NCBI GenBank assembly: GCA_944336975.1
Contig: CALVLH010000006.1
Span: 6,634-70,633 of the forward strand
From: an uncultured Clostridia bacterium
Lineage (GTDB): Bacteria > Bacillota > Clostridia > Christensenellales > Borkfalkiaceae
DNA length: 64,000 nucleotides
Reading direction: 5' to 3'
The position numbers and the translations under genes were made by a program. This document shows positions 20,309 to 48,505 of this stretch, piece by piece. Each line of letters begins with the position of its first letter. The stretch's first letter is position 1. Below the pieces are notes generated by a model. The model was not told the DNA's origin and did no database searches. It saw only the letters and a list, made by a program, of their open reading frames with translations.

Positions 20309-21289
20309 CTATTCGAAAAATATTTTGGCGACCGCTTCTTTCAGCGCGCTTTCCTTGCTCATCTGCCCGCTCTTGGACGCGCAAGAGAGCTCGTACAGCC
20401 TCAGATAAAACGCCTCCACGCGCTCCTTCCCGAACCGCGCCGCCGTCTCGCGGTTCTTCTGCACCGCATACGGCTTGATCCCCAGCGCTTTGGCGATTTC
20501 CGCGTCCGAACCGCTCATCGCGGATACATCGTACAGGGTGCGGAAATGGGAAGACAACGCGCCCAGCGCCGCCGTCTCGTCGAAGCCCTTTTCGATCAGA
20601 TCGCCGAGAATCTCCGAAAAAGCGGCGAACGACCGCCGCGACGCCGCCTGCGTCATTTCGTAGATCTTGTATTCGGCGCTGCGGTAAACGTTCTCCTCCA
20701 CGATCGCGCGCGTGACGGTGCCTCCCGCGCCGACGAGGAGCATGAGCTTTTCCGTCTCGCGGGAAACGCGCGCCATGTCGCAGGAGCAGAATTGCGCGAG
20801 CGCGAGCGCCGCGTCCCCTTCCGTCTTCACGCCCGCCCGCCGCGTCGTACCCGTGATCCAACGGCAGACGGTATCCTCGTCCGCGCGGGAACAGTCCACA
20901 TAGGTCACGTTCGGCTTTTTTTTCAGATCGGCCGCGCCGCTCTTTTTCTGCGCGTTGACGATGAGGAGAACCGTCGTCGGGCAGGGATCGGCAAAATAGC
21001 GGGCGAGATACGTTTCGTATTCCCGCTCCGTCGGATACAGCCCGTACACCCGCACGAGCCGTTTCTCGCTCAGGAAGGGATAGACATAGAGCGAATCGCG
21101 GAAGGAAGCGAGGGCGTCCCCCTTGAGGGACTCCCCTTCCAGGCGCACGTCGTTGAGCGACGGCTGCTGCACGCAGCGCTCGCGCAACGTCTTTTCCGCG
21201 CTCGCGTGGAAATAAGCCTCTTCCCCTTCGAGAAGATATACGGGAGCGACGCCCCCGTCCAGGCTCTTTTTGAACTCGGTAAATTTCAT
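20309..21289 (-). CDS. holA: DNA polymerase III delta subunit
   Basis: 326 aa. N-terminus APVYLLEGEEAYF and overall delta-subunit layout. Classic position directly after comEC. Confidence 0.85.
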   Translation of the reverse strand: MKFTEFKKSLDGGVAPVYLLEGEEAYFHASAEKTLRERCVQQPSLNDVRLEGESLKGDALASFRDSLYVYPFLSEKRLVRVYGLYPTEREYETYLARYFADPCPTTVLLIVNAQKKSGAADLKKKPNVTYVDCSRADEDTVCRWITGTTRRAGVKTEGDAALALAQFCSCDMARVSRETEKLMLLVGAGGTVTRAIVEENVYRSAEYKIYEMTQAASRRSFAAFSEILGDLIEKGFDETAALGALSSHFRTLYDVSAMSGSDAEIAKALGIKPYAVQKNRETAARFGKERVEAFYLRLYELSCASKSGQMSKESALKEAVAKIFFE

Positions 21290-23248
21290 CTATCTGATTA
21301 TACCATCTTTCAGCCGTAAAATCAAGCCGCCGCAGCTTTCATCGACAAAGAAATCGGCGCCCATCGCCGGCAATCCCTCAAAATCCACTTCCACCGCAGA
21401 GCCTTCCGCGACGATCATGAGCTTTTCCGCGCTTTCGTAGCGATACGTCACGCCGTCGACGGTAAACGTGCAGGCGATCGTGAGTTCCGTCTCCCGCAAG
21501 CCCGTTTCCGCGTATTCGCAAAGATAGATGCGCTCCGCGCGGAGAAACGCCGCCGTATTGACCGCGTCGACGATGTCCTCGTCCAGCACGATCACGGCAG
21601 ACAGCGTGCCGCACGCGTTGCGGCGGAAAAGGTCCTCGCATTCCCGCACGGTGACGTCGCCGTCGATGACGAGCGTCGAGCCGGACGGCGATCGGATGAG
21701 CACCGCCGAAGACTCGCCTTCGGAATATACGGAGATCTTGCACCCCGCGAACACGGCGTTTTCGAACACCATGCACATCGCGAACAGAGCGCAGAACACG
21801 CACGCCGTCGCCGCCCTGCCGCGCGGCGTCATGCGGAAGCGTTCGGAAAGCGCGACGCAGGCGATCAGCCAGACCGTTCCGCCCGCGCCCAGCGAAAACC
21901 CCGCGATCACATAAGTCAGATCGACGGAAGAAAACATCCACACGAGCAACGCCAGCACGCTTTCGGGACACAGCATGAGCACGGACGCCGCCGCGGGAAA
22001 AATAAGCGACAGCGCGGCGCACGCCAGGATCGCGGGGAAGACGACGCCGAGCGCAGGGATGACGAAGAAGTTCAGCGCCATTCCCCAGACGGAATAATAG
22101 CCGAACGACTGTATGAGGATGGGAAACGTGAAGATCTGCACGGCGAGCGATACGGAGAGATAGGAACGCAGGAAGGCGGGCAGACGGCGCAGGGCGCGCG
22201 AGAACTGTCCGGAAAAGAGCGCCATGCCGAGACACGCCCCGAATGAAAGGCGGAACCCGACGGCGAAAAACTGTGCGGGGCGCACGATGAGCAGACAGAC
22301 CGCCGCAAAGGAAATGCTCTCCAAAAAGTCATACTTCTTCCCGAACGTGCGAAAGAGCGCCGCCGAAGCGCACATCACCAAAGCGCGGACGGACGATACG
22401 GTGAACGCGCAAAGCCCGCAATAAAACCACGAGACCGCCAGCGCGGGCAGGACGCGCCACCGCCCGAGCGGTCTGCCCGCGAGGTATACCGCCGAAAACA
22501 GGATGCCGATGTGCAGTCCCGACACGGCGAAGATATGCGCGATGCCGCCCTCGCGCACCGCCTGCAACAGCCCGTCGTCCACGCTCTGCGAATTGCCCGT
22601 TAAAAGCGCGAGCGCCAGCCCGTATTCCTCCCCCGTCATCGTCCTTCCGAGCAGATCCCGCACCGCCGCGTTGAGCCTCAGGAAGGGTGAAGCGCTGCTT
22701 CCCGCGATCTCTGCGGAAGAACTCCGCGCCTCATAGCGGATGTCGCCGATCAGTTCGTACCATTCCCCCGCATCCGTCCCGTCGGGCAGGGCAAGTCTGA
22801 CCGCTTCTCCGCGGAAGCGCAGGATGTCGCCCACTTCCGCCGTCGCGCCCGAAAGCGTGAGCCGCAGATTGCCGCCCGAAGAGACGCCGTCGAAGGAGAG
22901 ATCGCAAAGCAGGACGGAGGAATAGCCGTTCCCCTCGGAAACGGACGAGACCGTCCCCGAGATCTCATAGTCGCCCGTCGGCACGCCCGATTGGTAAGAA
23001 GAGAGGTAGCAGGACATACAAAACGAGCCCGTCAGGATGAGGAGGAGAAAGACGGCGGCTCTCCCGACGCTCCGCGCCGCCTCCTTCGGGCGGCGCACGA
23101 AAAACAGACAAAACAGCGCGGGAAAGAGCAGATCGAGCGCGGAAAAACCGCCCAGAGTAATCCTCGCAAACAGGAAAATGCCCGCGGCGATGCCGAACGC
23201 GGCAAAGACCAACGGGCGAAAATTCATCCTTGGCAAAGGCGGCAGCAT
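21290..23248 (-). CDS. comEC: ComEC/Rec2 family DNA internalisation channel protein with degenerate C-terminal metallo-beta-lactamase-like domain
   Basis: 652 aa, polytopic. Competence-domain signature ALLTGNSQSVDDGLLQAVREGGIAHIFAVSGLHIGIL. The C-terminal about 150 aa aligns to the MBL domain start, but the HxHxDH position reads LDEDIVD. The start codon is uncertain (ATG 23248 or 23227). Confidence 0.88.
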   Translation of the reverse strand: MLPPLPRMNFRPLVFAAFGIAAGIFLFARITLGGFSALDLLFPALFCLFFVRRPKEAARSVGRAAVFLLLILTGSFCMSCYLSSYQSGVPTGDYEISGTVSSVSEGNGYSSVLLCDLSFDGVSSGGNLRLTLSGATAEVGDILRFRGEAVRLALPDGTDAGEWYELIGDIRYEARSSSAEIAGSSASPFLRLNAAVRDLLGRTMTGEEYGLALALLTGNSQSVDDGLLQAVREGGIAHIFAVSGLHIGILFSAVYLAGRPLGRWRVLPALAVSWFYCGLCAFTVSSVRALVMCASAALFRTFGKKYDFLESISFAAVCLLIVRPAQFFAVGFRLSFGACLGMALFSGQFSRALRRLPAFLRSYLSVSLAVQIFTFPILIQSFGYYSVWGMALNFFVIPALGVVFPAILACAALSLIFPAAASVLMLCPESVLALLVWMFSSVDLTYVIAGFSLGAGGTVWLIACVALSERFRMTPRGRAATACVFCALFAMCMVFENAVFAGCKISVYSEGESSAVLIRSPSGSTLVIDGDVTVRECEDLFRRNACGTLSAVIVLDEDIVDAVNTAAFLRAERIYLCEYAETGLRETELTIACTFTVDGVTYRYESAEKLMIVAEGSAVEVDFEGLPAMGADFFVDESCGGLILRLKDGIIR

Positions 23249-23257
23249 AAGGCGCCG

Positions 23258-26200
23258 TCAGGCGAGCGAGATGCGGTCGGACACGGAGCGCACGAACAAT
23301 CCCTTGTCCTCGCCGAGCGAAATGCAGTCGCGCACGAAAGAGGTAAACTTCTCCCCCGGGCGGATGACATGGAAAATGTTGCACAAAATGACCATCACCT
23401 CGTCCATGTACAGAGCGACGCGGTCCTCGAGCGCCCCGCGGACGAAGGAGACGATCTCGAAGGGCGTGAAGTCCTCTTCCGTCTTGCGAAGGACGGGCGC
23501 ATTCTCCACGCGGAAGCGGTCAAGGCTGAGCGCGCGGTCGTTTTTATAGAAATAATCGTCGCCGAACACGCGCTCGCGTCGGAAGGCGCAGGCGTCGATG
23601 AGCGAATCCAGGCGGCTTTCCACCTTGGCGCCGCTCTTGGCGATGCCGAACGTCGCGAGACACCGCTTTTTGAGGAACGCGCGGGAGATGGGCTCTTCCG
23701 TCGCGACGATCTCTTTCAGCCGCGCCATGATCGCCGCGTCGTTCTCGCCGCCCGTGACGAATACCGCCGTCTCCGCGCCCGTCTCCTTGACCGCGCGGTA
23801 AGGCCTGCGGTATTTATTCAGCCATGCCCCCGCCTTCTTGTCCGCGCCCGTCAGACGGTCGAGCATCTCCTTGATGCGCTTGATCTCGCGCTTGGGATTG
23901 TTGTAATAGTTGACCGCATACACGCGCATGATGTTCCAGTTGCCGCGCTTGAGCGTCTGCACTTGCAGGACGTTGCGGTCTTTGACGGAAAACTGCGTCG
24001 TCCCGTCGCAGAGCACGGCAAGGATGAAGCGGTGTTTGTTCTTGGGATCGACGACGGCGACGTCGATCTTGAAATCGGACGCGCCCACGTCGCAGCGGCA
24101 GTCGTACCCGCAGCCCGTAAGCTCCGCGGCGATGAACTTGCCGATGCCCGCGCCGCCCTTGACGAAGGCGGAATTGACGGCGAGCGTCGTTCTGCCCTTT
24201 TCCGCAAATTCGAGGAAGGCTTTGAGCCCCGCCACGCCTTTGGACGAAGTCTTGCCGAGATCGATCATCGCGGAGGTCATCGTCGAGAAGATGAGCATCT
24301 CCTCCCTCGCACGGGAAACCGCCACGTTGAGGCGGCGCCAGCCGCCCGTCTGGTTGAGCGGACCGAAGTTCAGAGAGACGCGCCCCGTCTGATCGGGCCC
24401 GTAACACACGGAGAAGAGGATGACGTCGCGCTCGTCGCCCTGTACGTTTTCGAGGTTCTTGACGAAGAGCGGCTCTTCGCGCTCGTACGCCGCGCTCTCG
24501 AGATGCCGTGCGGCAATGGCGCGGGAGAGCAGTTTGTCGATGTCGTCGCGCTGTGCGCTGGAAAACGTGACCACGCCCATGCTCGAACGCGCGAGGGCGG
24601 GATCGGACAGGCGGCGGATAACTTCCGCGACCAGCGCCTCCGCTTCCTTGCGGTTGCGCTTGGTGAAGCCCCTGTCGTAAGTGCCGTCCACCTGAATGAA
24701 TTTCACCTTGCTTTCCAGCGAATCGGGCGAAGGGAAGGTGCACAGCTTGTTGTCGTAATACATGATGTTGGAGAACGCGATCAGGCTCTCGTGCTTGCTG
24801 CGGTAATGCCACAGCAGGTGCCGCTCGGGCATCCCCAGGGCGAGGCAGTCGTCGAGGATGCTCTCCAGATCTTCGTTTTCCAGATTTTCCTCATCCACAT
24901 AAGCGGAATGGAAGAAACTCGTCGGCGGGAGCTGTTTGGGATCGCCCACGACGATCGCCGACTTCGCTCTCGCAATGGAACCGATCGCCTCCGCCGTGGA
25001 CATCTGCGACGCTTCGTCGAAGATGACGAGATCGAACTGATCGGCGACGGGTTGCAGATACTGCGCCACGGTAATCGGGCTCATGAGCATACAGGGCGCG
25101 ACGCGGCGCACAAGCTCGGGGATCTCCTCAAACAGCCCGCGCAGCCCCACGCCGCGCAGATTGCTCTTGGAAAGGCGGGTGAAGGCGGAAACCTCCACGC
25201 TCAGGCTCCCCTCCGCGTCCGCCGCAGGGAGGCGGGAAATGAGGTCGGCGCGGATCTTGTCGCGCGAGAGCCGAGAGAACTCCTCCCACTCCAACCTGAA
25301 TTTTTCGATGGTATCTTCCAGCGTCCCCACCGTCATGCGGGACAGGCAGGGATCGGCGGGGATGTTGATCTCCAAAAAGTTCTTATAGACGTTCTTCTCG
25401 AAGCCGGAAAGGATGTTTTCCCCGCGCAGTCTGCCGCTTTCCAGCGCGTCGGAGATGAATGTGAGCCCCGCCTTGCCGAGCTGTTCCGCCGTCGCGCGGT
25501 ACATGCACCAGTTGGGGAGCATATCAATGTTATCCAACAGCGCGCTCGCCTTGGAAGAATAATAATCGAGCACGTCCTCTTCGCGGATCTGATCGCGGTC
25601 GGCGTTGGTGACGGTGAGAAAATGCCCCTGCGCCGCCGCAAAGCTCGCCGAAGCCTTCCTGTACCCGTCCAGGACGGGCGCGGTATACCCGTTCGCCGCG
25701 CGGATGCACATCCCGTTGAACGCGTCCGGATTATAGTCCATGAACACGCTCGAGCACATCTCGTGCAGGCGGTACAGATCGGCGAGGAATTCGCTCCTGC
25801 GCTTGAAGTTGACGTTCCCCGCGCGGTCGCAGAAATTCGCGGAGAGCGCGGTGTTCTTGCGTACGCGATCGATCGCCTCGTAGATCTCCACGAGCGTCTG
25901 CAAAAACTTGGGGATGTCCTCCTCGTCGGGCTTGTTGATCGCCGCGCGGCTGAGCCGCTTCGCCGCCGAGACCGCGGCTTTGCACAGGCGGTAGTCGCCT
26001 CCCTCTTCGCAGAAGCGTTTGAGTTCGGCAAAATCCTTCCCCGGCTCGACGAGCGTGCGGAAATATTTGAAATAGTAGGCAAGACAATCGTCCAGCCGCT
26101 TATTTGCGTTAAAGAAGAGATAGAACTCGTGCTCGTCCACGCGGGAGAAATATTTCTGATACATCCCCGAAGAGAGATTTTCCGCGATCACCGCGAGCAA

Positions 26201-28873
26201 GTCCAGCTTTCTCTGCGTGAGCGTGCTGATCTTCTGGCGGTAAAATTCGAGGAAGAGCGCGAGATAGGCTTTGAGGTGACGGATCTCCGTGAGCACCACT
26301 TCGCACGAGCAGTACACGGTATCGCGCAGGCCTTGCGAATATTGGGTGAGGTTGACGTTCTCGAAGGGAGAATTGCAAACCCCGCCGCACTCCTTCGCCG
26401 CCGCCGCCGCGGAGAGGATCATGCTCTTGCACTCGGCGAGTCGCTGTTCGGTGAGCGTGTCGTAGAACGAACTCTCGATGTCGAGGATGTCGGGCGCCGA
26501 TTTGTTCTGAAGATAATACAGGATCGCCTGATACACGGAAATCCCGAGACGGCGCTTTTTGTGCAATGCGACAAGCGGCTCTTTGAGCTGTTCGCGCAGA
26601 CGGACGATCTCTTCCGCGCGTTCGGAGTACCCGTATTCCCCCTCTTCGCGTTTAAGTTCGAGGGTGTTCTCCATCCGACGGAGCACGTCCGCCTTATCCG
26701 CCTTGTTGGAATGCAGTTCGAGGCAGAAATCGCCGATCCCGAGCGTATCCAGGCGCTTTTTGACCACGTCGAGCGCGGCTTTCTTTTCCGCGACGAAGAG
26801 CACGCGCTTTCCGTCTTCGAGCGCGTTGGCGATGATGTTCGTGATCGTCTGGCTCTTGCCCGTCCCGGGAGGACCGTGCAAGACGAAGCTCGTTCCCGTC
26901 TGCGAAAGGGAGATCGCCGAAAACTGCGAGCTGTCCGCAGGCAGAGGCGTGAGCGTTTCGGTGGGATAGCTCTCGTCCTCTTCCGTCGCTTCCGCCGCCC
27001 TGTAATCGGCGCGGTTGCTCATCAGCGCCGAGACGAGGGCGTTCTTTTTCAACTCGGCGAAGTTCCTGCGCAGATCGTTCCACATCAGATAACGCTGGAA
27101 AGAGAAGGTGGCGAGATAGACGTCCCCGCACACGTCCCAGCCCTTCATGTTCGCCGTTTCCGCGCGTACCATGGCGAGGATCTCGGAGATCTTGAGAGCG
27201 GACACGTCGCCGCCCAGGCCGCGCACGTCGATGTTGAATTCCTGTTTGAGGAATTCGAGCAGCGTGGAGTTGACCGAATATTCCTTTTCCCCCGCGTCGA
27301 GCGCAAAGTCCTCGTTGCCCTTCGCGCGGCGGATGTTGACGGGCATGAGCACGAGCGGCGCATGCTTGGGCTGTCCGTCCTCTTTGCTGACGTATTTGAG
27401 GAAGCCGAAGGCGAGATAGAGGATCTTCGCCCCCGTCTCTTCGTCCGCTTCCTTGTTTTTCCGCATGAGACGCTGCGTCACTTCGCCCAACGTCTTGGCG
27501 TCGCAGAAGGCGCGCACGATGCCCTTCCCCTGTTCCAGTTCGATGAGCTCGCGTTCCAGCCCGAGCGCCCCCTCCGCGCCGAACGCGGGTTCGGGCAATT
27601 CGCGCGGCGCGCTGCCGCGGAGACGGACGGAATCTTCTTTGGCAAACACGCCGTACAGCGCGTCGGCGTTCGCCGAGCACAGATGAAGCGCGTTCCTGCC
27701 CGAAAAGTTAAGCAGTTGGTTTTTGGCGGTCATGTCCAGAAGACGGCGTTCCCACTGCTTGTTCTTAGGCTGTTTCCCCTCCAGGTTCAGCTTGCGGAAG
27801 CTGGGCAGAGGCGCGGGCGCGTTTTCGTCCGTCGCGTCCTCCTCTTTGATGAGTTCGTACCCGTGCAAGCCGCTCCCGCGCAGGGGAAGGGGCATGATGC
27901 GCCCGATCCTGCAACGGCGTATATCGACGAAATATTCGTAATAGCTCTCCTGCAATTTCTGCTTAAAATGCGTTTCGGAAGGCGTAAAGGCGATATTGCG
28001 CGCGCTGAACAGGTCGGATACGTCGAAAAAGCTGAGGTTGTTGATGCCGTCGGAAACATACTTCCCGACGATCTCGGCGTCGTCCGTGACGGTATCCAGA
28101 AAACAGCTGTCGTACAGCCAGACACCGACGGAAACGGCGTTTTTGCCCACCGCGATGACGGGATGCAGGCGGGCGGCTTCCAGACAAGCCGCGGCGAGCA
28201 CGGCGAGCTGCAATTCGTTCGCCTTGCCCTCTTTGAGGATGAGTTCTTTCCCCGCGGCGGCGGGAAGGGAGAGGTCGGTCTCCTCCGTCCGCTCGATCGC
28301 GCGGCTCTTCAATGCGGCGTACACCGCCGCGACGATCTGCCGTACCGTGTTTTTATCCGTACCCGCATATCCGTAAAATTCCGTATTCACCTTCCACTTT
28401 TTCAGCCTTGCGCCTGCGTCGGCGAGGATGTTCGCGCAGTCGGCAAGCTTGGGACGGACATAAGCGGCGAGAAATTCGGCATTGGATTCCAACCCGCCCC
28501 ACCAGTCATAGGGCAGGACGGAGACCTGCGCGCTCGCACGGCAGATCTCGGCGTCTTCGGCAAAGAGCATGACCTCCGCGGCGCACTCGCGCAGTTCGTC
28601 GTTTTCCGCGAGGAAAAGGGGCGAAAAAATGCCCTCGGCATTGAGTTCCACCGAGCTTTCGAAGGGCACCTCCGCCGTCGTCTCGTAAGGGACGAGAAGC
28701 CCGTCGGCATTCTCCGCTTTGACTTTTACGTTGACCGCTTCCGCTCCGTCGTTCTTGATCTGAATGGCGGCAAATGTCTTGTAGTAATAATCCGCATATC
28801 CGACGACTTTCGGAAATTGGACAAAAAGCGACAACTTATCTTTGAGTAAATTCTTTGCTTTCTGTGCAGCCAT
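23258..28873 (-). CDS. 1871-aa multidomain protein: unknown N-terminal region + DUF4011-like + Upf1-like SF1 helicase (AAA_11/AAA_12) with large insertion + PD-(D/E)XK-type nuclease-like module + DUF3320-like tail
   Basis: SD AAGGAG lies 5 nt before the ATG. WERRLLDMTAKNQLLNF (aa ~373-390, DUF4011-like). Walker A LHGPPGTGKSQ (aa 665-675, nt 26875-26852 for GPPGTGKS). Motif II VIFDEASQ (aa 1283-1290). VVGDPKQLPP, LWHYRSKHESLIAFSN, QGDERDVILFS, RRLNVAVSRAREEMLIFS. Nuclease-like GYDCRCDVGASDFKIDVAVVD...ILAVLCDG (aa ~1589-1624). Confidence 0.9.
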   Translation of the reverse strand: MAAQKAKNLLKDKLSLFVQFPKVVGYADYYYKTFAAIQIKNDGAEAVNVKVKAENADGLLVPYETTAEVPFESSVELNAEGIFSPLFLAENDELRECAAEVMLFAEDAEICRASAQVSVLPYDWWGGLESNAEFLAAYVRPKLADCANILADAGARLKKWKVNTEFYGYAGTDKNTVRQIVAAVYAALKSRAIERTEETDLSLPAAAGKELILKEGKANELQLAVLAAACLEAARLHPVIAVGKNAVSVGVWLYDSCFLDTVTDDAEIVGKYVSDGINNLSFFDVSDLFSARNIAFTPSETHFKQKLQESYYEYFVDIRRCRIGRIMPLPLRGSGLHGYELIKEEDATDENAPAPLPSFRKLNLEGKQPKNKQWERRLLDMTAKNQLLNFSGRNALHLCSANADALYGVFAKEDSVRLRGSAPRELPEPAFGAEGALGLERELIELEQGKGIVRAFCDAKTLGEVTQRLMRKNKEADEETGAKILYLAFGFLKYVSKEDGQPKHAPLVLMPVNIRRAKGNEDFALDAGEKEYSVNSTLLEFLKQEFNIDVRGLGGDVSALKISEILAMVRAETANMKGWDVCGDVYLATFSFQRYLMWNDLRRNFAELKKNALVSALMSNRADYRAAEATEEDESYPTETLTPLPADSSQFSAISLSQTGTSFVLHGPPGTGKSQTITNIIANALEDGKRVLFVAEKKAALDVVKKRLDTLGIGDFCLELHSNKADKADVLRRMENTLELKREEGEYGYSERAEEIVRLREQLKEPLVALHKKRRLGISVYQAILYYLQNKSAPDILDIESSFYDTLTEQRLAECKSMILSAAAAAKECGGVCNSPFENVNLTQYSQGLRDTVYCSCEVVLTEIRHLKAYLALFLEFYRQKISTLTQRKLDLLAVIAENLSSGMYQKYFSRVDEHEFYLFFNANKRLDDCLAYYFKYFRTLVEPGKDFAELKRFCEEGGDYRLCKAAVSAAKRLSRAAINKPDEEDIPKFLQTLVEIYEAIDRVRKNTALSANFCDRAGNVNFKRRSEFLADLYRLHEMCSSVFMDYNPDAFNGMCIRAANGYTAPVLDGYRKASASFAAAQGHFLTVTNADRDQIREEDVLDYYSSKASALLDNIDMLPNWCMYRATAEQLGKAGLTFISDALESGRLRGENILSGFEKNVYKNFLEINIPADPCLSRMTVGTLEDTIEKFRLEWEEFSRLSRDKIRADLISRLPAADAEGSLSVEVSAFTRLSKSNLRGVGLRGLFEEIPELVRRVAPCMLMSPITVAQYLQPVADQFDLVIFDEASQMSTAEAIGSIARAKSAIVVGDPKQLPPTSFFHSAYVDEENLENEDLESILDDCLALGMPERHLLWHYRSKHESLIAFSNIMYYDNKLCTFPSPDSLESKVKFIQVDGTYDRGFTKRNRKEAEALVAEVIRRLSDPALARSSMGVVTFSSAQRDDIDKLLSRAIAARHLESAAYEREEPLFVKNLENVQGDERDVILFSVCYGPDQTGRVSLNFGPLNQTGGWRRLNVAVSRAREEMLIFSTMTSAMIDLGKTSSKGVAGLKAFLEFAEKGRTTLAVNSAFVKGGAGIGKFIAAELTGCGYDCRCDVGASDFKIDVAVVDPKNKHRFILAVLCDGTTQFSVKDRNVLQVQTLKRGNWNIMRVYAVNYYNNPKREIKRIKEMLDRLTGADKKAGAWLNKYRRPYRAVKETGAETAVFVTGGENDAAIMARLKEIVATEEPISRAFLKKRCLATFGIAKSGAKVESRLDSLIDACAFRRERVFGDDYFYKNDRALSLDRFRVENAPVLRKTEEDFTPFEIVSFVRGALEDRVALYMDEVMVILCNIFHVIRPGEKFTSFVRDCISLGEDKGLFVRSVSDRISLA

Positions 28874-28886
28874 GGTTCTCCTTTTT

Positions 28887-28927: not shown

Positions 28928-28956
28928 ATTATACCATATTTTTCTGTCCTTGGCAA
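28928..28956 (-). promoter_or_regulatory. sigma-A promoter candidate for the helicase-nuclease gene
   Basis: Minus strand: TTGCCA (28956-28951), 17-nt spacer ending in TGg, TATAAT (28933-28928). Confidence 0.55.
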
Positions 28957-29021: not shown

Positions 29022-29052
29022 CAAAAAAACATCCGCGCCCGGGCGCGGATGT
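29022..29052 (-). terminator. rho-independent terminator after yraN
   Basis: Minus strand: ACATCCGCGCC-cg-GGCGCGGATGT followed by TTTTTTT (29029-23), 14 nt after the yraN stop. Confidence 0.75.
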
Positions 29053-29065
29053 CCTCCGTATTTTG

Positions 29066-29422
29066 TCAGAATGCGTTTTCGATGTATTCCAGCCCCTGCT
29101 CCGTCAGTGCGGCGACGTCGAAGCGGACGGGAAGCTCCTCCCCTTTCGAAAGGCAGAAATACTGCGCGATCGCGCGGTAGCGCTTTCTCTTCGCCGCCGT
29201 CACCCCCTCGCCGGGGGAGCCGTATTCGTCGGAAGAGCGCGTCTTCACCTCGACGAAGGCGTAGATCCCGCCGCGCAGCGCGACGATGTCCGCTTCCCCG
29301 AACGGCGTCTTGTAATTGCGTTCGAGGATGCGGTATCCCTCTCGTTTCAGGTATCGGCAGACGGCGTTTTCTCCCCGCCTGCCCAGAATTTTTGCGCGAA
29401 GGTCTTGCGATGGATCTCGCAT
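29066..29422 (-). CDS. yraN: YraN-family (UPF0102) endonuclease-like protein
   Basis: 118 aa. LGRRGENAVCRYLKREGYRILERNY....GEADIVA....YAFVEVKTR is the typical UPF0102 core. The only ATG/GTG/TTG start in frame (29422) overlaps rnhB by 76 nt, so the start is uncertain. Confidence 0.8.
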   Translation of the reverse strand: MRDPSQDLRAKILGRRGENAVCRYLKREGYRILERNYKTPFGEADIVALRGGIYAFVEVKTRSSDEYGSPGEGVTAAKRKRYRAIAQYFCLSKGEELPVRFDVAALTEQGLEYIENAF

Positions 29423-29982
29423 AATCCGTACTCCCCGATGGCGCGGATGTGCTCCGCCGTCCCGTATCCCGCATTGCGCTCGAAGCCGTATTGCGGGTAT
29501 CTTTCCGCATAGCGGCGCATCAGCCCGTCCCGATACACCTTGGCGAGGATGCTCGCCGCGCCGATGGAACACACGAGCGTGTCGCCCTTGACGATGCTCT
29601 GCTGCGGAACGGCGATGTCCAGCGTCATGTTTCCGTCGGTGAGGACCATGTCCGGGGTTGCGGACAAGCCCTCCACCGCGCGTTTCATGCACAGCCGCGT
29701 CGCCTGTAAGATGTTGATCTCGTCTATGGTCCCCGCGTCCGCTTCCGCGATCGACCATGCCCGCGCCCTTTCGCGGATGAGCGCGGCGAGCGCTTCCCGC
29801 TTTTTGGGCGAAAGTTTCTTGCTGTCGTTTATGCCGAGGATGCGATCCTCTTCCCGTACGGATAGGATGACCGCCGCGCACACGACGGGTCCCGCGAGCG
29901 GTCCCCGCCCCACTTCGTCCACGCCCGCGACGGCGGCATATCCCGCGGACAAGAGTTCTCTTTCGTAATCGAGTGCGTCCAT
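29347..29982 (-). CDS. rnhB: ribonuclease HII
   Basis: 211 aa. VAGVDEVGRGPLAGPVV, NDSKKLS, ILAKVYRD. Confidence 0.95.
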   Translation of the reverse strand: MDALDYERELLSAGYAAVAGVDEVGRGPLAGPVVCAAVILSVREEDRILGINDSKKLSPKKREALAALIRERARAWSIAEADAGTIDEINILQATRLCMKRAVEGLSATPDMVLTDGNMTLDIAVPQQSIVKGDTLVCSIGAASILAKVYRDGLMRRYAERYPQYGFERNAGYGTAEHIRAIGEYGLCEIHRKTFAQKFWAGGEKTPSADT

Positions 29983-48370: not shown

Positions 48371-48413
48371 ACGCAAAACAGGGCAGTTCTATCCCTCACG
48401 AATAGAACTGCCC
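48371..48413 (-). terminator. rho-independent terminator forming the expression platform of the leader upstream of purE
   Basis: Minus strand: GGGCAGTTCTAT-tcgtgaggg-ATAGAACTGCCC followed by TGTTTTGCGTTT. Its 5' arm overlaps the CUGGGCAG element of the candidate aptamer. Confidence 0.65.
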
Positions 48414-48480
48414 AGTCGGACGACATAAAATTTCTGCTCTTTGCTCCCTTGCGGTGTCCCGCTTTCCGACAGTCGCAAAA
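48405..48480 (-). ncRNA. candidate ZTP (pfl-motif) riboswitch aptamer
   Basis: Minus-strand RNA: UUUGC-GACUGUCGGAAA-GCGG-gaca-CCGC-AAGGGA-GCAAA ... GUCGUCCGACUGGGCAG. This matches the recalled pfl hallmarks: GACUGnCGG, a short P2 hairpin, P1 closure (UUUGC/GCAAA) and the 3' CCGnCUGGGC element. It is compared from memory with the Fusobacterium ulcerans ZTP aptamer. Context (pur operon incl. purH and fhs) fits. Confidence 0.6.
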
Positions 48481-48505
48481 AACAATTGATGAAATTCATG
48501 TCTAT

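What the first reader, a model, noticed from the sequence alone, without database searches (positions are those of the whole stretch)
23258..28873. Stand-alone 1871-aa DUF4011 / Upf1-like helicase / PD-(D/E)XK nuclease / DUF3320 protein: candidate single-gene nucleic-acid surveillance system
All SF1 Upf1-like motifs are intact: GPPGTGKS at aa 667-674, DEASQ at 1286-1290, VVGDPKQLPP, QGDERD and NVAVSRAR. After the helicase comes a restriction-endonuclease-like module (GASDFKIDVAVVD...ILAVLCDG, aa ~1589-1624, nt ~23864-24151). A C-terminal region (aa ~1715-1871) looks like DUF3320. Helicase + nuclease on one polypeptide is the logic of several anti-phage proteins. For example, type II Mokosh combines a COG1112-type helicase with a PLD nuclease. 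Here the nuclease fold differs, and DUF4011 and DUF3320 are uncharacterised. I know of no experimentally defined function for this architecture. It interrupts two otherwise conserved housekeeping blocks (ylqF-rnhB-yraN and comEC-holA) and has its own promoter.
Basis: partly seen in the sequence, partly recalled or inferred. Interest (0 to 1): 0.7.

Follow-up and report, generated by a model that had tools for sequence, protein, structure and literature searches.

The report
Core-inherited ProA-type helicase defence protein
This 1871-residue gene belongs to a family of single-protein helicase/nuclease-like anti-phage proteins that is already catalogued (ProA / PDC-S37, sister of Hhe), but in this group of gut Clostridia it behaves like a stable housekeeping gene rather than a mobile defence gene.

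Summary
The ORF (23258-28873, minus strand) and all quoted motifs are real. Pfam finds DUF4011, a split Upf1-like helicase and an MTES_1575 nuclease-like domain. DUF3320 is only sub-threshold.

The architecture is not uncharacterised:
- PADLOC PDC-S37 matches at E 1e-295.
- NCBIfam 'anti-phage protein ProA' scores 1477 bits against a cut-off of 1500.
- Hhe, a validated single-gene defence, is the sister family.

So this is a divergent ProA-family member.

It is not a recent insertion. About 45 species-level relatives (46-89% identity) carry it in one of three housekeeping contexts. Six of six relatives sampled through TrmD have it after rnhB-yraN. Its divergence tracks its neighbours (rho 0.62-0.93). 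dN/dS is 0.10, like the flanking genes. It is probably co-transcribed with comEC-holA.

True ProA genes elsewhere are patchy, lie on 466 plasmids, or sit beside Cas9 or GmrSD.

The nuclease-like domain lacks the canonical Glu and His (L1621, F1628), as do most ProA-like proteins. A putative nuclease active-site Glu (E1731, not mapped onto this protein) is essential in Hhe.

Most likely it is a chromosomally fixed ProA-type DNA-surveillance helicase. The rival is domestication for host DNA metabolism. Verdict: new member of a known kind, moderate interest.

The parts
23258..28873 (-). CDS of the 1871-aa ProA-family protein, stop codon included
   Evidence: NCBIfam ProA scores 1477 bits and PADLOC PDC-S37 gives E 1.3e-295.
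28928..28956 (-). Sigma-70-type promoter TTGCCA-17-TATAAT with an extended -10 TG
   Evidence: 11 of 12 positions match. The -35 and TGGTATAAT elements are conserved in 6 of 8 relatives.
28878..28883 (-). Ribosome-binding site AAGGAG, 4 nt before the ATG
   Evidence: Read from the sequence. It is conserved in the alignment.
29023..29051 (-). Intrinsic terminator of the upstream rnhB-yraN unit: hairpin plus U7
   Evidence: -22.4 kcal/mol, z = -3.3, 0 of 200 shuffles fold as well.
28514..28834 (-). N-terminal beta-sandwich (Ig/CARDB/MG-like), aa 14-120
   Evidence: AF2 model pLDDT is about 90. Foldseek PDB hits to MG, CARDB and FnIII-type sandwiches have E 1e-5 to 1e-3. Pfam finds nothing.
27848..28486 (-). 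Alpha/beta domain of unassigned fold, aa 130-342. The ProA profile covers it.
   Evidence: pLDDT is 85-95. There are no Pfam or PDB sequence matches. The NCBIfam ProA match starts at aa 35.
27248..27745 (-). DUF4011 domain, aa 377-542
   Evidence: Pfam, 99.4 bits.
26714..26941 (-). Helicase domain 1A, first part, with Walker A GPPGTGKS (K673), aa 645-720
   Evidence: The PDB match is IGHMBP2. The motif is invariant in homologues.
25064..26713 (-). About 550-aa helical insertion between Walker A and motif II, aa 721-1270
   Evidence: No Pfam family matches. The PDC-S37, ProA and Hhe profiles cover it. dN/dS is 0.095.
24284..25057 (-). Helicase motifs II-VI (DEASQ, GDPKQLPP, QGDERD, NVAVSRAR), aa 1273-1530
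   Evidence: Pfam AAA_11 and AAA_12. PDB matches are Sen1 and Upf1.
23861..24133 (-). MTES_1575 (Vsr/DUF559-like) restriction-endonuclease-fold domain, aa 1581-1671. The canonical Glu is replaced by L1621 and the canonical His by F1628.
   Evidence: Pfam, 63 bits. Motif comparison. dN/dS is 0.066.
23261..23776 (-). C-terminal DUF3320-like region, aa 1700-1871. It is predicted as helix/hairpin units, possibly winged-helix.
   Evidence: Pfam DUF3320 scores 18-22 bits, below GA 25. AF2 pLDDT is 80-90. Foldseek gives only weak winged-helix hits with E >= 0.015.
21290..23248 (-). comEC (652 aa; Competence plus DUF4131, no Lactamase_B domain). It starts 9 nt after the helicase stop and is probably co-transcribed.
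   Evidence: The same adjacency occurs in 21 relatives with gaps mostly 6-76 nt.
20309..21289 (-). holA (DNA polymerase III delta), abutting comEC
29066..29422 (-). yraN (UPF0102 family), overlapping the 3' end of rnhB (29347-29982)
   Evidence: The orthologue in L003 and L093 carries PF02021.

Best explanation
**Identity (shown).** The gene encodes a divergent member of the ProA family, which is PADLOC candidate PDC-S37 and the sister of the validated Hhe system. These are large stand-alone proteins. From N to C terminus they contain:
- a beta-sandwich plus alpha/beta module
- DUF4011
- an Upf1-like SF1 helicase split by a roughly 550-aa insertion
- a Vsr/MTES_1575-type endonuclease-fold domain
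- a DUF3320 tail

**Status in this lineage (shown).** The lineage is Gallimonas / 'Christensenella'-type gut Clostridia. Here the gene is an old, vertically inherited, strongly constrained chromosomal gene. It has its own conserved promoter and lies directly upstream of comEC-holA.

**Mechanism (inferred).** The ATPase core, with all motifs intact, translocates on nucleic acid like other Upf1-like SF1B helicases. The N-terminal module and DUF4011 act as the sensor or regulator that licenses loading on invading or aberrantly replicating DNA. The C-terminal endonuclease-fold plus DUF3320 module engages the DNA. The result is restriction of phage or other incoming DNA, as in Hhe.

**Open point.** L1621 and F1628 replace the canonical Glu and His, and a putative nuclease active-site Glu (E1731, not mapped onto this protein) is essential in Hhe. 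Direct cleavage by the canonical chemistry is therefore doubtful. The module may cut with the retained D1604, D1623 and D1632-R1633, or it may act only as a DNA clamp.
For: **Family assignment.**
- PDC-S37: E 1.3e-295 over profile positions 11-1533 of 1550.
- ProA equivalog: 1477 bits, covering aa 35-1680.
- Relatives of 31-35% identity in Bacteroidota, Paenibacillus, Lentisphaeria and a Klebsiella plasmid score 2000-2270 bits on ProA over the full profile.
- Hhe profile: 696 bits.

**Helicase.** The motifs are invariant. The best solved relatives are IGHMBP2, Sen1 and Upf1.

**Defence character of the wider family.**
- No conserved partner gene appears in 15 ProA loci.
- Neighbours include Cas9, two GmrSD genes and DUF2130.
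- 466 plasmids carry a relative, 212 of them conjugative.
- The Klebsiella plasmid copy is flanked by IS110 elements.
- Hhe is experimentally anti-phage and depends on its nuclease Glu. Its triggers are phage DNA-metabolism genes.

**Constraint.** dN/dS is 0.097 overall and 0.056-0.126 in every domain.

**Expression signals.** Promoter, ribosome-binding site and upstream terminator are present.

**Precedent for a 'core' DUF4011 gene.** Such a gene is present in every P. aeruginosa isolate (PMC10250203).
Against: - The score is just below NCBIfam's ProA cut-off, and the last 190 or so profile positions are not matched.
- I could not find the paper behind the ProA name. 'Anti-phage' for ProA therefore rests on the NCBIfam label alone.
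- In this clade the gene shows none of the population signatures of defence genes.
  - It sits in housekeeping arrays.
  - It is present in 6 of 6 independently sampled relatives.
  - It co-diverges with its neighbours.
  - It is more conserved than ComEC, HolA and CdaA.
- The canonical Glu and His of the nuclease fold are missing in 43 of 43 close relatives.
- No phenotype can be tested here.
Confidence: 0.55

Rival explanations
1. Domesticated housekeeping helicase. A ProA-type gene was captured early in this order. It now serves host DNA or RNA-DNA transactions, for example clearing R-loops or replication-transcription conflicts, or processing replication or repair intermediates. The endonuclease-fold domain has been reduced to a DNA-binding module.
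For: - Three different housekeeping contexts are each conserved within sub-lineages. Their neighbours are DNA-metabolism genes: rnhB, yraN, holA, nrnA and a UvrD-like helicase.
- The gene is present in 6 of 6 unbiased relatives.
- Co-divergence with neighbours gives rho 0.62-0.93.
- It is more conserved than HolA, CdaA and ComEC.
- dN/dS of 0.097 equals that of neighbours.
- It is probably in one transcript with the essential holA.
- The Glu and His are lost.
- Eukaryotic relatives of the helicase core (Sen1, IGHMBP2, Upf1) are housekeeping enzymes.
Against: - Loss of the Glu and His is not specific to this clade. Most bona fide ProA proteins of Bacteroidota and Firmicutes share it, including ones next to Cas9 or GmrSD.
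- The whole architecture, putative sensor domains included, is retained unchanged.
- Neighbouring housekeeping genes can reflect nothing more than low genome flux in small genomes.
- Coreness was sampled, not shown genome-wide.
Confidence: 0.3
2. Competence-linked function. The protein works with ComEC, acting as a gatekeeper that unwinds, checks or degrades DNA taken up through the ComEC channel. It is co-expressed from one promoter.
For: - The helicase gene lies directly upstream of comEC on the same strand in 21 species-level genomes. Gaps are mostly 6-76 nt, and ComEC identity falls as low as 28-34%.
- In the window the gap is 9 nt with no terminator.
- ComEC here has no Lactamase_B nuclease domain.
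Against: - The adjacency is lost in many close relatives. The helicase stays with rnhB-yraN and is followed by trkH-trkA instead.
- It is absent from the roughly 50%-identity sub-clade and from every bona fide ProA locus examined.
- No other competence genes are linked.
- The missing ComEC domain faces the outside of the cell, while this protein is cytoplasmic (inference).
Confidence: 0.1
3. One reading: a recently inserted, functionally uncharacterised kind of single-gene surveillance system that forms a small defence islet between two housekeeping blocks.
For: - It has its own promoter, and a terminator lies upstream.
- The architecture is of the defence type.
Against: - The family is already catalogued as PDC-S37, ProA and Hhe.
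- There is no compositional break: GC is 0.57-0.62 across the gene and its flanks.
- The locus is conserved and vertically inherited.
Confidence: 0.03

Closest known systems
ProA ('anti-phage protein ProA', NCBIfam NF058533; PADLOC candidate PDC-S37)
   Same: - The overall architecture and order of domains match, from the N-terminal module to DUF3320.
- Profile matches run over aa 35-1680 (ProA) and 372-1854 (PDC-S37).
- Both are stand-alone genes without a conserved partner.
- The same conserved D...D...(K/R)DR...W core is found in the nuclease-fold domain. As in most non-proteobacterial ProA proteins, a hydrophobic residue sits at the canonical Glu position.
   Different: - The score of 1477 is below the 1500 cut-off, and the C-terminal 190 or so profile positions are unmatched.
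- Identity to bona fide ProA is only 31-35%.
- Here the gene is vertically inherited in housekeeping operons. Bona fide ProA is taxonomically patchy, plasmid-borne, IS-flanked, or sits next to Cas9 or GmrSD.
- Proteobacterial ProA keeps the Glu and His ('VECDGATYHS').
Hhe (Gao et al. 2020 system, cited from my own knowledge; NCBIfam NF042953, PADLOC Hhe)
   Same: - It is a single polypeptide with DUF4011, an Upf1-like helicase and a Vsr-type endonuclease-fold domain.
- The profile matches over the C-terminal 600 or so residues.
- Anti-phage activity has been shown experimentally for Hhe.
   Different: - The score is 696 bits against a cut-off of 2000. The N-terminal 1070 residues do not match the Hhe profile.
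- Hhe needs a putative nuclease active-site Glu (E1731A abolishes defence). I could not map E1731 onto this protein, but the canonical Glu position of the fold here is Leu.
Mokosh type II (MkoC)
   Same: It pairs a COG1112/Upf1-like helicase with a nuclease on one polypeptide. There is a partial profile hit of E 7e-33 over the helicase C-terminal half.
   Different: There is no PLD nuclease domain. The N- and C-terminal domains differ. The profile hit covers only aa 1356-1534.
Eukaryotic Upf1-like SF1B helicases (IGHMBP2, Sen1, Upf1)
   Same: The helicase motifs match, and these are the best solved-structure matches.
   Different: Only the two RecA-like halves are shared. This protein has a 550-aa insertion, DUF4011, the nuclease fold and DUF3320, all of which those enzymes lack.

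Membership tests
ProA (NCBIfam NF058533 equivalog) | Whole-protein HMM score at or above the curated cut-off (1500 bits) | tested here: not met
   1477 bits, 98% of the cut-off. Profile positions 13-1712 of 1903 are matched. Bona fide members score 2000-2270 over positions 1-1903.
ProA (NCBIfam NF058533 equivalog) | Architecture: N-terminal module, DUF4011, split Upf1-like helicase, MTES_1575 fold, DUF3320 | tested here: met
   DUF3320 is only sub-threshold (18-22 bits against GA 25), but it aligns with the ProA DUF3320 region.
ProA (NCBIfam NF058533 equivalog) | Protection against phage | not testable with these tools
   No experiment was possible. The source paper for the ProA name was not found in ten literature searches.
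PADLOC PDC-S37 (candidate single-gene system) | Match to the PDC-S37 profile over most of its length | tested here: met
   E 1.3e-295, 982 bits, profile positions 11-1533 of 1550, protein aa 372-1854.
Hhe (NCBIfam NF042953) | Whole-protein HMM score at or above 2000 bits | tested here: not met
   696 bits. Only aa 1073-1680 align.
Hhe (NCBIfam NF042953) | Catalytic Glu of the Vsr-type nuclease domain (E1731 in Hhe, required for defence) | tested here: inconclusive
   The canonical 'IECDG..YH' motif reads 'VLCDG..QF' here (L1621, F1628). I could not obtain the Hhe sequence to confirm that E1731 is this Glu.
Mokosh type II (MkoC) | PLD-family nuclease domain fused to the helicase | tested here: not met
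   There is no PLD family among the Pfam hits. The MkoC profile hit is limited to aa 1356-1534.
Upf1-like SF1 helicases | Walker A, DEAxQ, and motifs III, V and VI intact | tested here: met
   The motifs are invariant in 24 homologues.
Canonical MTES_1575 / DUF559 / Vsr-like endonucleases | Conserved Asp, Glu (IExDG) and His (YH) of the active site | tested here: not met
   - D1604 and D1623 are kept.
- The Glu is replaced by L, M, V or I in 43 of 43 close relatives.
- The His is replaced by F in 38 of 43.
- Among 145 representative clusters, the Glu is present in only 7 and the His in only 8.
Accessory or mobile defence gene (defence-island behaviour) | Patchy presence, variable or mobile context, association with other defence genes | tested here: not met
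   - For this clade: housekeeping synteny, presence in 6 of 6 TrmD-anchored relatives, and co-divergence with neighbours.
- The feature is met only by distant ProA genes.

The most novel reading that the evidence does not exclude
A ProA-type defence helicase has been domesticated in a whole order of small-genome gut Clostridia. It became a core gene, lost the canonical nuclease chemistry, and was wired into the comEC-holA transcription unit. It now acts on the cell's own or incoming DNA, in replication or R-loop maintenance or in gatekeeping of ComEC-imported DNA, rather than as a classical accessory anti-phage gene.
Probability: 0.22. Interest if true: 0.65.

Novelty: new member of a known kind. 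Interest (0 to 1): 0.36.

Why it matters
The protein itself is not a new kind of system. Its family is already in PADLOC and NCBIfam, and its sister family Hhe has been tested.

What is worth keeping is the contrast within one family. Elsewhere, ProA genes are patchy and plasmid-borne or sit in defence neighbourhoods. In this lineage of uncultured gut Clostridia, the gene is as stable and as constrained as tRNA-modification and replication genes, and it probably shares a transcript with holA.

If that reflects 'core immunity', it is a useful case for asking why some defence genes become fixed. If it reflects domestication, it would show a defence helicase recruited to genome maintenance.

The replacement of the canonical Glu and His in most ProA-like proteins also bears on how this family works. 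A putative nuclease active-site Glu is essential in Hhe.

Tried and rejected
- **ProA source paper.** Ten full-text searches found nothing. Two candidate papers were checked and did not mention it.
- **ComEC-anchored scan** of species genomes, meant to look for empty junctions. The patterns matched no true relative. It was replaced by TrmD-anchored sampling.
- **Transglutaminase-like reading of aa 130-342.** The idea came from a Cys/His/Asp pattern and from Foldseek hits to the N-terminal sandwich of protein 4.2. Pfam and PDB profile searches gave no support, so I dropped it.
- **Solved structures.** Only generic Upf1-like helicase cores match by sequence. The N- and C-terminal profiles hit nothing.
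- **Fold of the C-terminal 340 aa.** Model confidence is modest (pLDDT 65). No Foldseek hit has E <= 1e-3, and there are only weak winged-helix similarities. The nuclease-fold part was too poorly modelled to judge active-site geometry.
- **Conserved partner gene** among bona fide ProA loci. None was found.
- **Phage carriage.** Only 3 weak hits in 2.9 million viral contigs.
- **A second 'large ORF' in L037.** It is an antisense artefact, not a paralogue.
Full report
**1. Observation**

ORF 23258..28873 on the minus strand encodes 1871 aa. A mirror ORF of 1952 aa on the plus strand is a high-GC artefact. Only the minus-strand product matches protein families.

Each is invariant in 24 homologues of 59-100% identity.

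Pfam gives these hits:
- DUF4011, aa 377-542, 99 bits.
- AAA_11, split into a Walker-A part near aa 660 and a motif-II part at aa 1273-1319.
- AAA_12, aa 1344-1530.
- MTES_1575, aa 1581-1671, 63 bits against a gathering score of 38.
- DUF3320 stays below threshold: 18.3 bits in the whole protein and 21.8 bits when the C-terminus is scanned alone, against GA 25.

The first 375 residues and the roughly 550-residue insertion between Walker A and DEASQ have no Pfam family.

The upstream signals are as follows:
- yraN ends at 29066. It is followed by a perfect hairpin plus U7, with -22.4 kcal/mol and z = -3.3.
- A TTGCCA-17-TGnTATAAT promoter lies at 28956-28928.
- An AAGGAG ribosome-binding site follows.
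- The -35 and extended -10 elements are conserved in 6 of 8 relatives while the spacer around them is not.

**2. What the protein is**

- PADLOC: PDC-S37 at E 1.3e-295 (aa 372-1854 against profile 11-1533 of 1550), then Hhe at E 2e-142. MkoC and MkoA match only over the helicase core.
- NCBIfam: 'anti-phage protein ProA' (equivalog NF058533) scores 1477 bits against a cut-off of 1500, covering aa 35-1680 and profile positions 13-1712 of 1903. 'DUF4011 domain-containing anti-phage protein Hhe' scores 696 bits against 2000.
- Relatives of only 31-35% identity score 2000-2270 bits on ProA over the whole profile. They come from Apibacter, Flavihumibacter, Pedobacter, Paenibacillus, a Lentisphaeria MAG and a Klebsiella IncFIB plasmid.

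The window protein is therefore a divergent branch of the ProA family with a diverged C-terminus. It is not Hhe and not Mokosh.

Hhe has been tested experimentally. It is a single gene with helicase and Vsr-type nuclease domains. It is active against lambda, T3, T7 and PhiV-1, and it loses activity in an E1731A mutant (bioRxiv 10.1101/2022.06.16.496414). Phage DNA-metabolism genes act as its triggers (PMC11482910). From memory, the original description is Gao et al. 2020.

I could not find the paper behind the name ProA. That label rests on NCBIfam alone.

**3. Anatomy beyond Pfam**

An AlphaFold2 model of aa 1-640, built from a 13-sequence alignment, is confident for aa 10-335 (pLDDT about 90).
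- Aa 14-120 form a beta-sandwich. Its Foldseek matches are MG, CARDB and FnIII-type sandwiches with E 1e-5 to 1e-3.
- Aa 130-342 form an alpha/beta domain for which I found no relative.

The C-terminal model (aa 1530-1871) is mediocre over the nuclease fold (pLDDT 55-70). It is good over aa 1700-1860 or so (pLDDT 80-90), which form helix/hairpin units. Foldseek gives only weak winged-helix similarities, with E >= 0.015.

By sequence, only the helicase core has solved relatives: IGHMBP2, Sen1 and Upf1.

**4. The nuclease-fold domain**

Canonical members read '...IDL..(18)..L.GIECDG..YHS...RDRD.R'. Examples are representatives P0226 and P0240 and the Klebsiella ProA 'VECDGATYHSAATARDRD'.

The window protein reads 'KIDVAVVD...FILAVLCDGTTQFS---VKDRN'. 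The Glu is L1621, the His is F1628, and three residues are deleted.

The counts at these positions are:

| Set | Glu position | His position |
|---|---|---|
| 43 close relatives | L, M, V or I in all 43 | F in 38 |
| 40 more distant genome loci | Glu in 2 | not counted |
| 145 representative clusters of the C-terminal module | Glu in 7 | His in 8 |

D1604, D1623, D1632, R1633 and W1646 are at least 96% conserved everywhere. The domain is under strong constraint, with dN/dS 0.066.

So the domain is functional, but canonical cleavage chemistry is doubtful. This feature is shared with most non-proteobacterial ProA proteins and is not special to this window.

**5. Genomic behaviour**

The exact protein lies on a 192-kb metagenome scaffold. 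More than 120 full-length homologues of 59-100% identity exist. Those that carry names come from Clostridia MAGs, Ca. Gallimonas and Ca. Borkfalkiaceae.

A scan of species-representative genomes found at least 588 species with a relative.
- The 46-76% identity tier is all Christensenellales-type gut MAGs.
- The 31-43% tier is scattered over Bacteroidota, Paenibacillus, Lachnospiraceae, Collinsella, Akkermansia, Synergistes and others.

In the close tier the gene sits in three housekeeping contexts:
- (a) rimM-trmD-ylqF-rnhB-yraN | gene | comEC-holA-cdaA. This is the window's arrangement.
- (b) The same left flank, but followed by trkH-trkA. Alternatively, rimP-nusA-infB-rbfA-nrnA | gene | comEC-holA-cdaA.
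- (c) guaB-guaA-UvrD-like helicase | gene | ... dapB-dapA-asd.

The gene stays with one flank or the other when rearrangements occur, so it is an old resident and not an insertion.

Further evidence for stable inheritance:
- In 21 genomes it lies directly upstream of comEC on the same strand, with gaps mostly 6-76 nt. Its identity to the window protein correlates with that of CdaA (rho 0.93), HolA (0.80) and ComEC (0.62).
- It is more conserved than those neighbours. For example, it is 60% identical where ComEC, HolA and CdaA are 34%, 46% and 55%.
- Against the 89%-identical orthologue, dN/dS is 0.097. Neighbours range from 0.04 to 0.16, and ComEC is 0.24. Every domain lies between 0.056 and 0.126.
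- Six relatives were chosen through TrmD (86-90% identity), without regard to the helicase. All six carry the gene after rnhB-yraN.
- GC content shows no break across the gene.
- In the window, the stop codon is 9 nt from the comEC ATG with no terminator, and holA abuts comEC. The conserved promoter probably drives all three genes (inference).

By contrast, bona fide ProA loci behave like mobile defence genes:
- They share no partner gene.
- Their neighbours include Cas9, two GmrSD genes, DUF2130, SbcCD and another Upf1-like helicase.
- 466 plasmids carry a relative: Klebsiella 242, Ralstonia 105; 212 are conjugative.
- The Klebsiella copy is flanked by IS110 elements.
- Phage carriage is negligible.

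**6. Interpretation**

Homology to a catalogued defence family is firm. What the protein does in this lineage is not.

I favour a chromosomally fixed ProA-type surveillance helicase (0.55).
- The whole sensor-motor-effector architecture is retained under constraint.
- The family's only tested relative, Hhe, is anti-phage.
- Core DUF4011 genes have a precedent: one is present in every P. aeruginosa isolate (PMC10250203).

The main rival is domestication for host DNA metabolism (0.30). It is supported by the synteny, the coreness, the conservation above HolA, and the DNA-metabolism neighbours. It is weakened because the Glu/His loss and the architecture are shared with ProA genes that sit in defence neighbourhoods.

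A ComEC-linked gatekeeper role (0.10) is suggested by the 21-genome adjacency and by a ComEC without its Lactamase_B domain. However, the adjacency is lost in many close relatives.

**7. Verdict**

This is a new member of a known kind. The finding is real and was correctly recognised as a defence-type architecture. It is already catalogued, though, and it is not an island.

Residual interest is moderate. It lies in the core-like, vertically inherited status of a defence-family gene across a gut Clostridia lineage, and in the unresolved chemistry of its nuclease-fold domain.

Noticed in passing
window 48403-48486 (-): A ZMP/ZTP riboswitch (Rfam RF01750) scores 58.7 bits against a gathering score of 39. 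It lies in the purine/folate gene region of the scaffold, near the purL and FTHFS genes.
   Followed up: no
window 22991-28849 (+): A 1952-aa open reading frame runs antisense to the helicase gene. Its product is Arg/Glu/Ala-rich and low in complexity. It is a shadow ORF typical of high-GC coding DNA, not a gene. A similar artefact of 1536 aa occurs in L037.
   Followed up: yes
window 21290-23248 (-): ComEC here is 652 aa and has only the Competence and (weak) DUF4131 domains. The metallo-beta-lactamase nuclease domain of B. subtilis-type ComEC is absent. Orthologues in relatives are 517-646 aa. A strong AT-skew peak (0.33-0.42) covers this membrane-protein gene.
   Followed up: partly
L095 12486-13040 and L096 12486-13040: In two relatives a 184-aa GNAT acetyltransferase gene is inserted between yraN and the helicase gene. 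This is the only variable cargo seen at that junction.
   Followed up: no
L019 5461-7827, and the same position in L021, L023, L024, L026, L027, L077: In the roughly 50%-identity sub-clade, a UvrD-family helicase of about 800 aa lies immediately upstream of the ProA-like gene in 7 genomes. It sits between guaA and the gene.
   Followed up: partly
L088 (Klebsiella michiganensis IncFIB plasmid NZ_OP378641.1, 147576-153467): A bona fide ProA (2222 bits) with canonical Glu and His is flanked by IS110-family transposases. Relatives occur on 242 Klebsiella and 105 Ralstonia plasmids. RefSeq still names them 'DUF3320 domain-containing protein'.
   Followed up: partly
L081 734-5056 and L071 14118-18274: Bona fide ProA genes lie next to a Cas9 gene in a Bergeyella MAG and next to two GmrSD-type restriction genes in Pedobacter. 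L080 and L085 have SbcCD directly downstream.
   Followed up: no
L001 19487-19597, and the same position in L002, L006, L087: A conserved 35-36-codon ORF follows cdaA in the four gene-annotated loci that include cdaA (L001, L002, L006, L087). It has no Pfam family.
   Followed up: no
window 29347-29422: The yraN start overlaps the 3' end of rnhB by about 76 nt in another frame. The same overlap, about 60 nt, is seen in relatives (L003, L093, L097). The gene caller missed yraN in L001 and L087.
   Followed up: no
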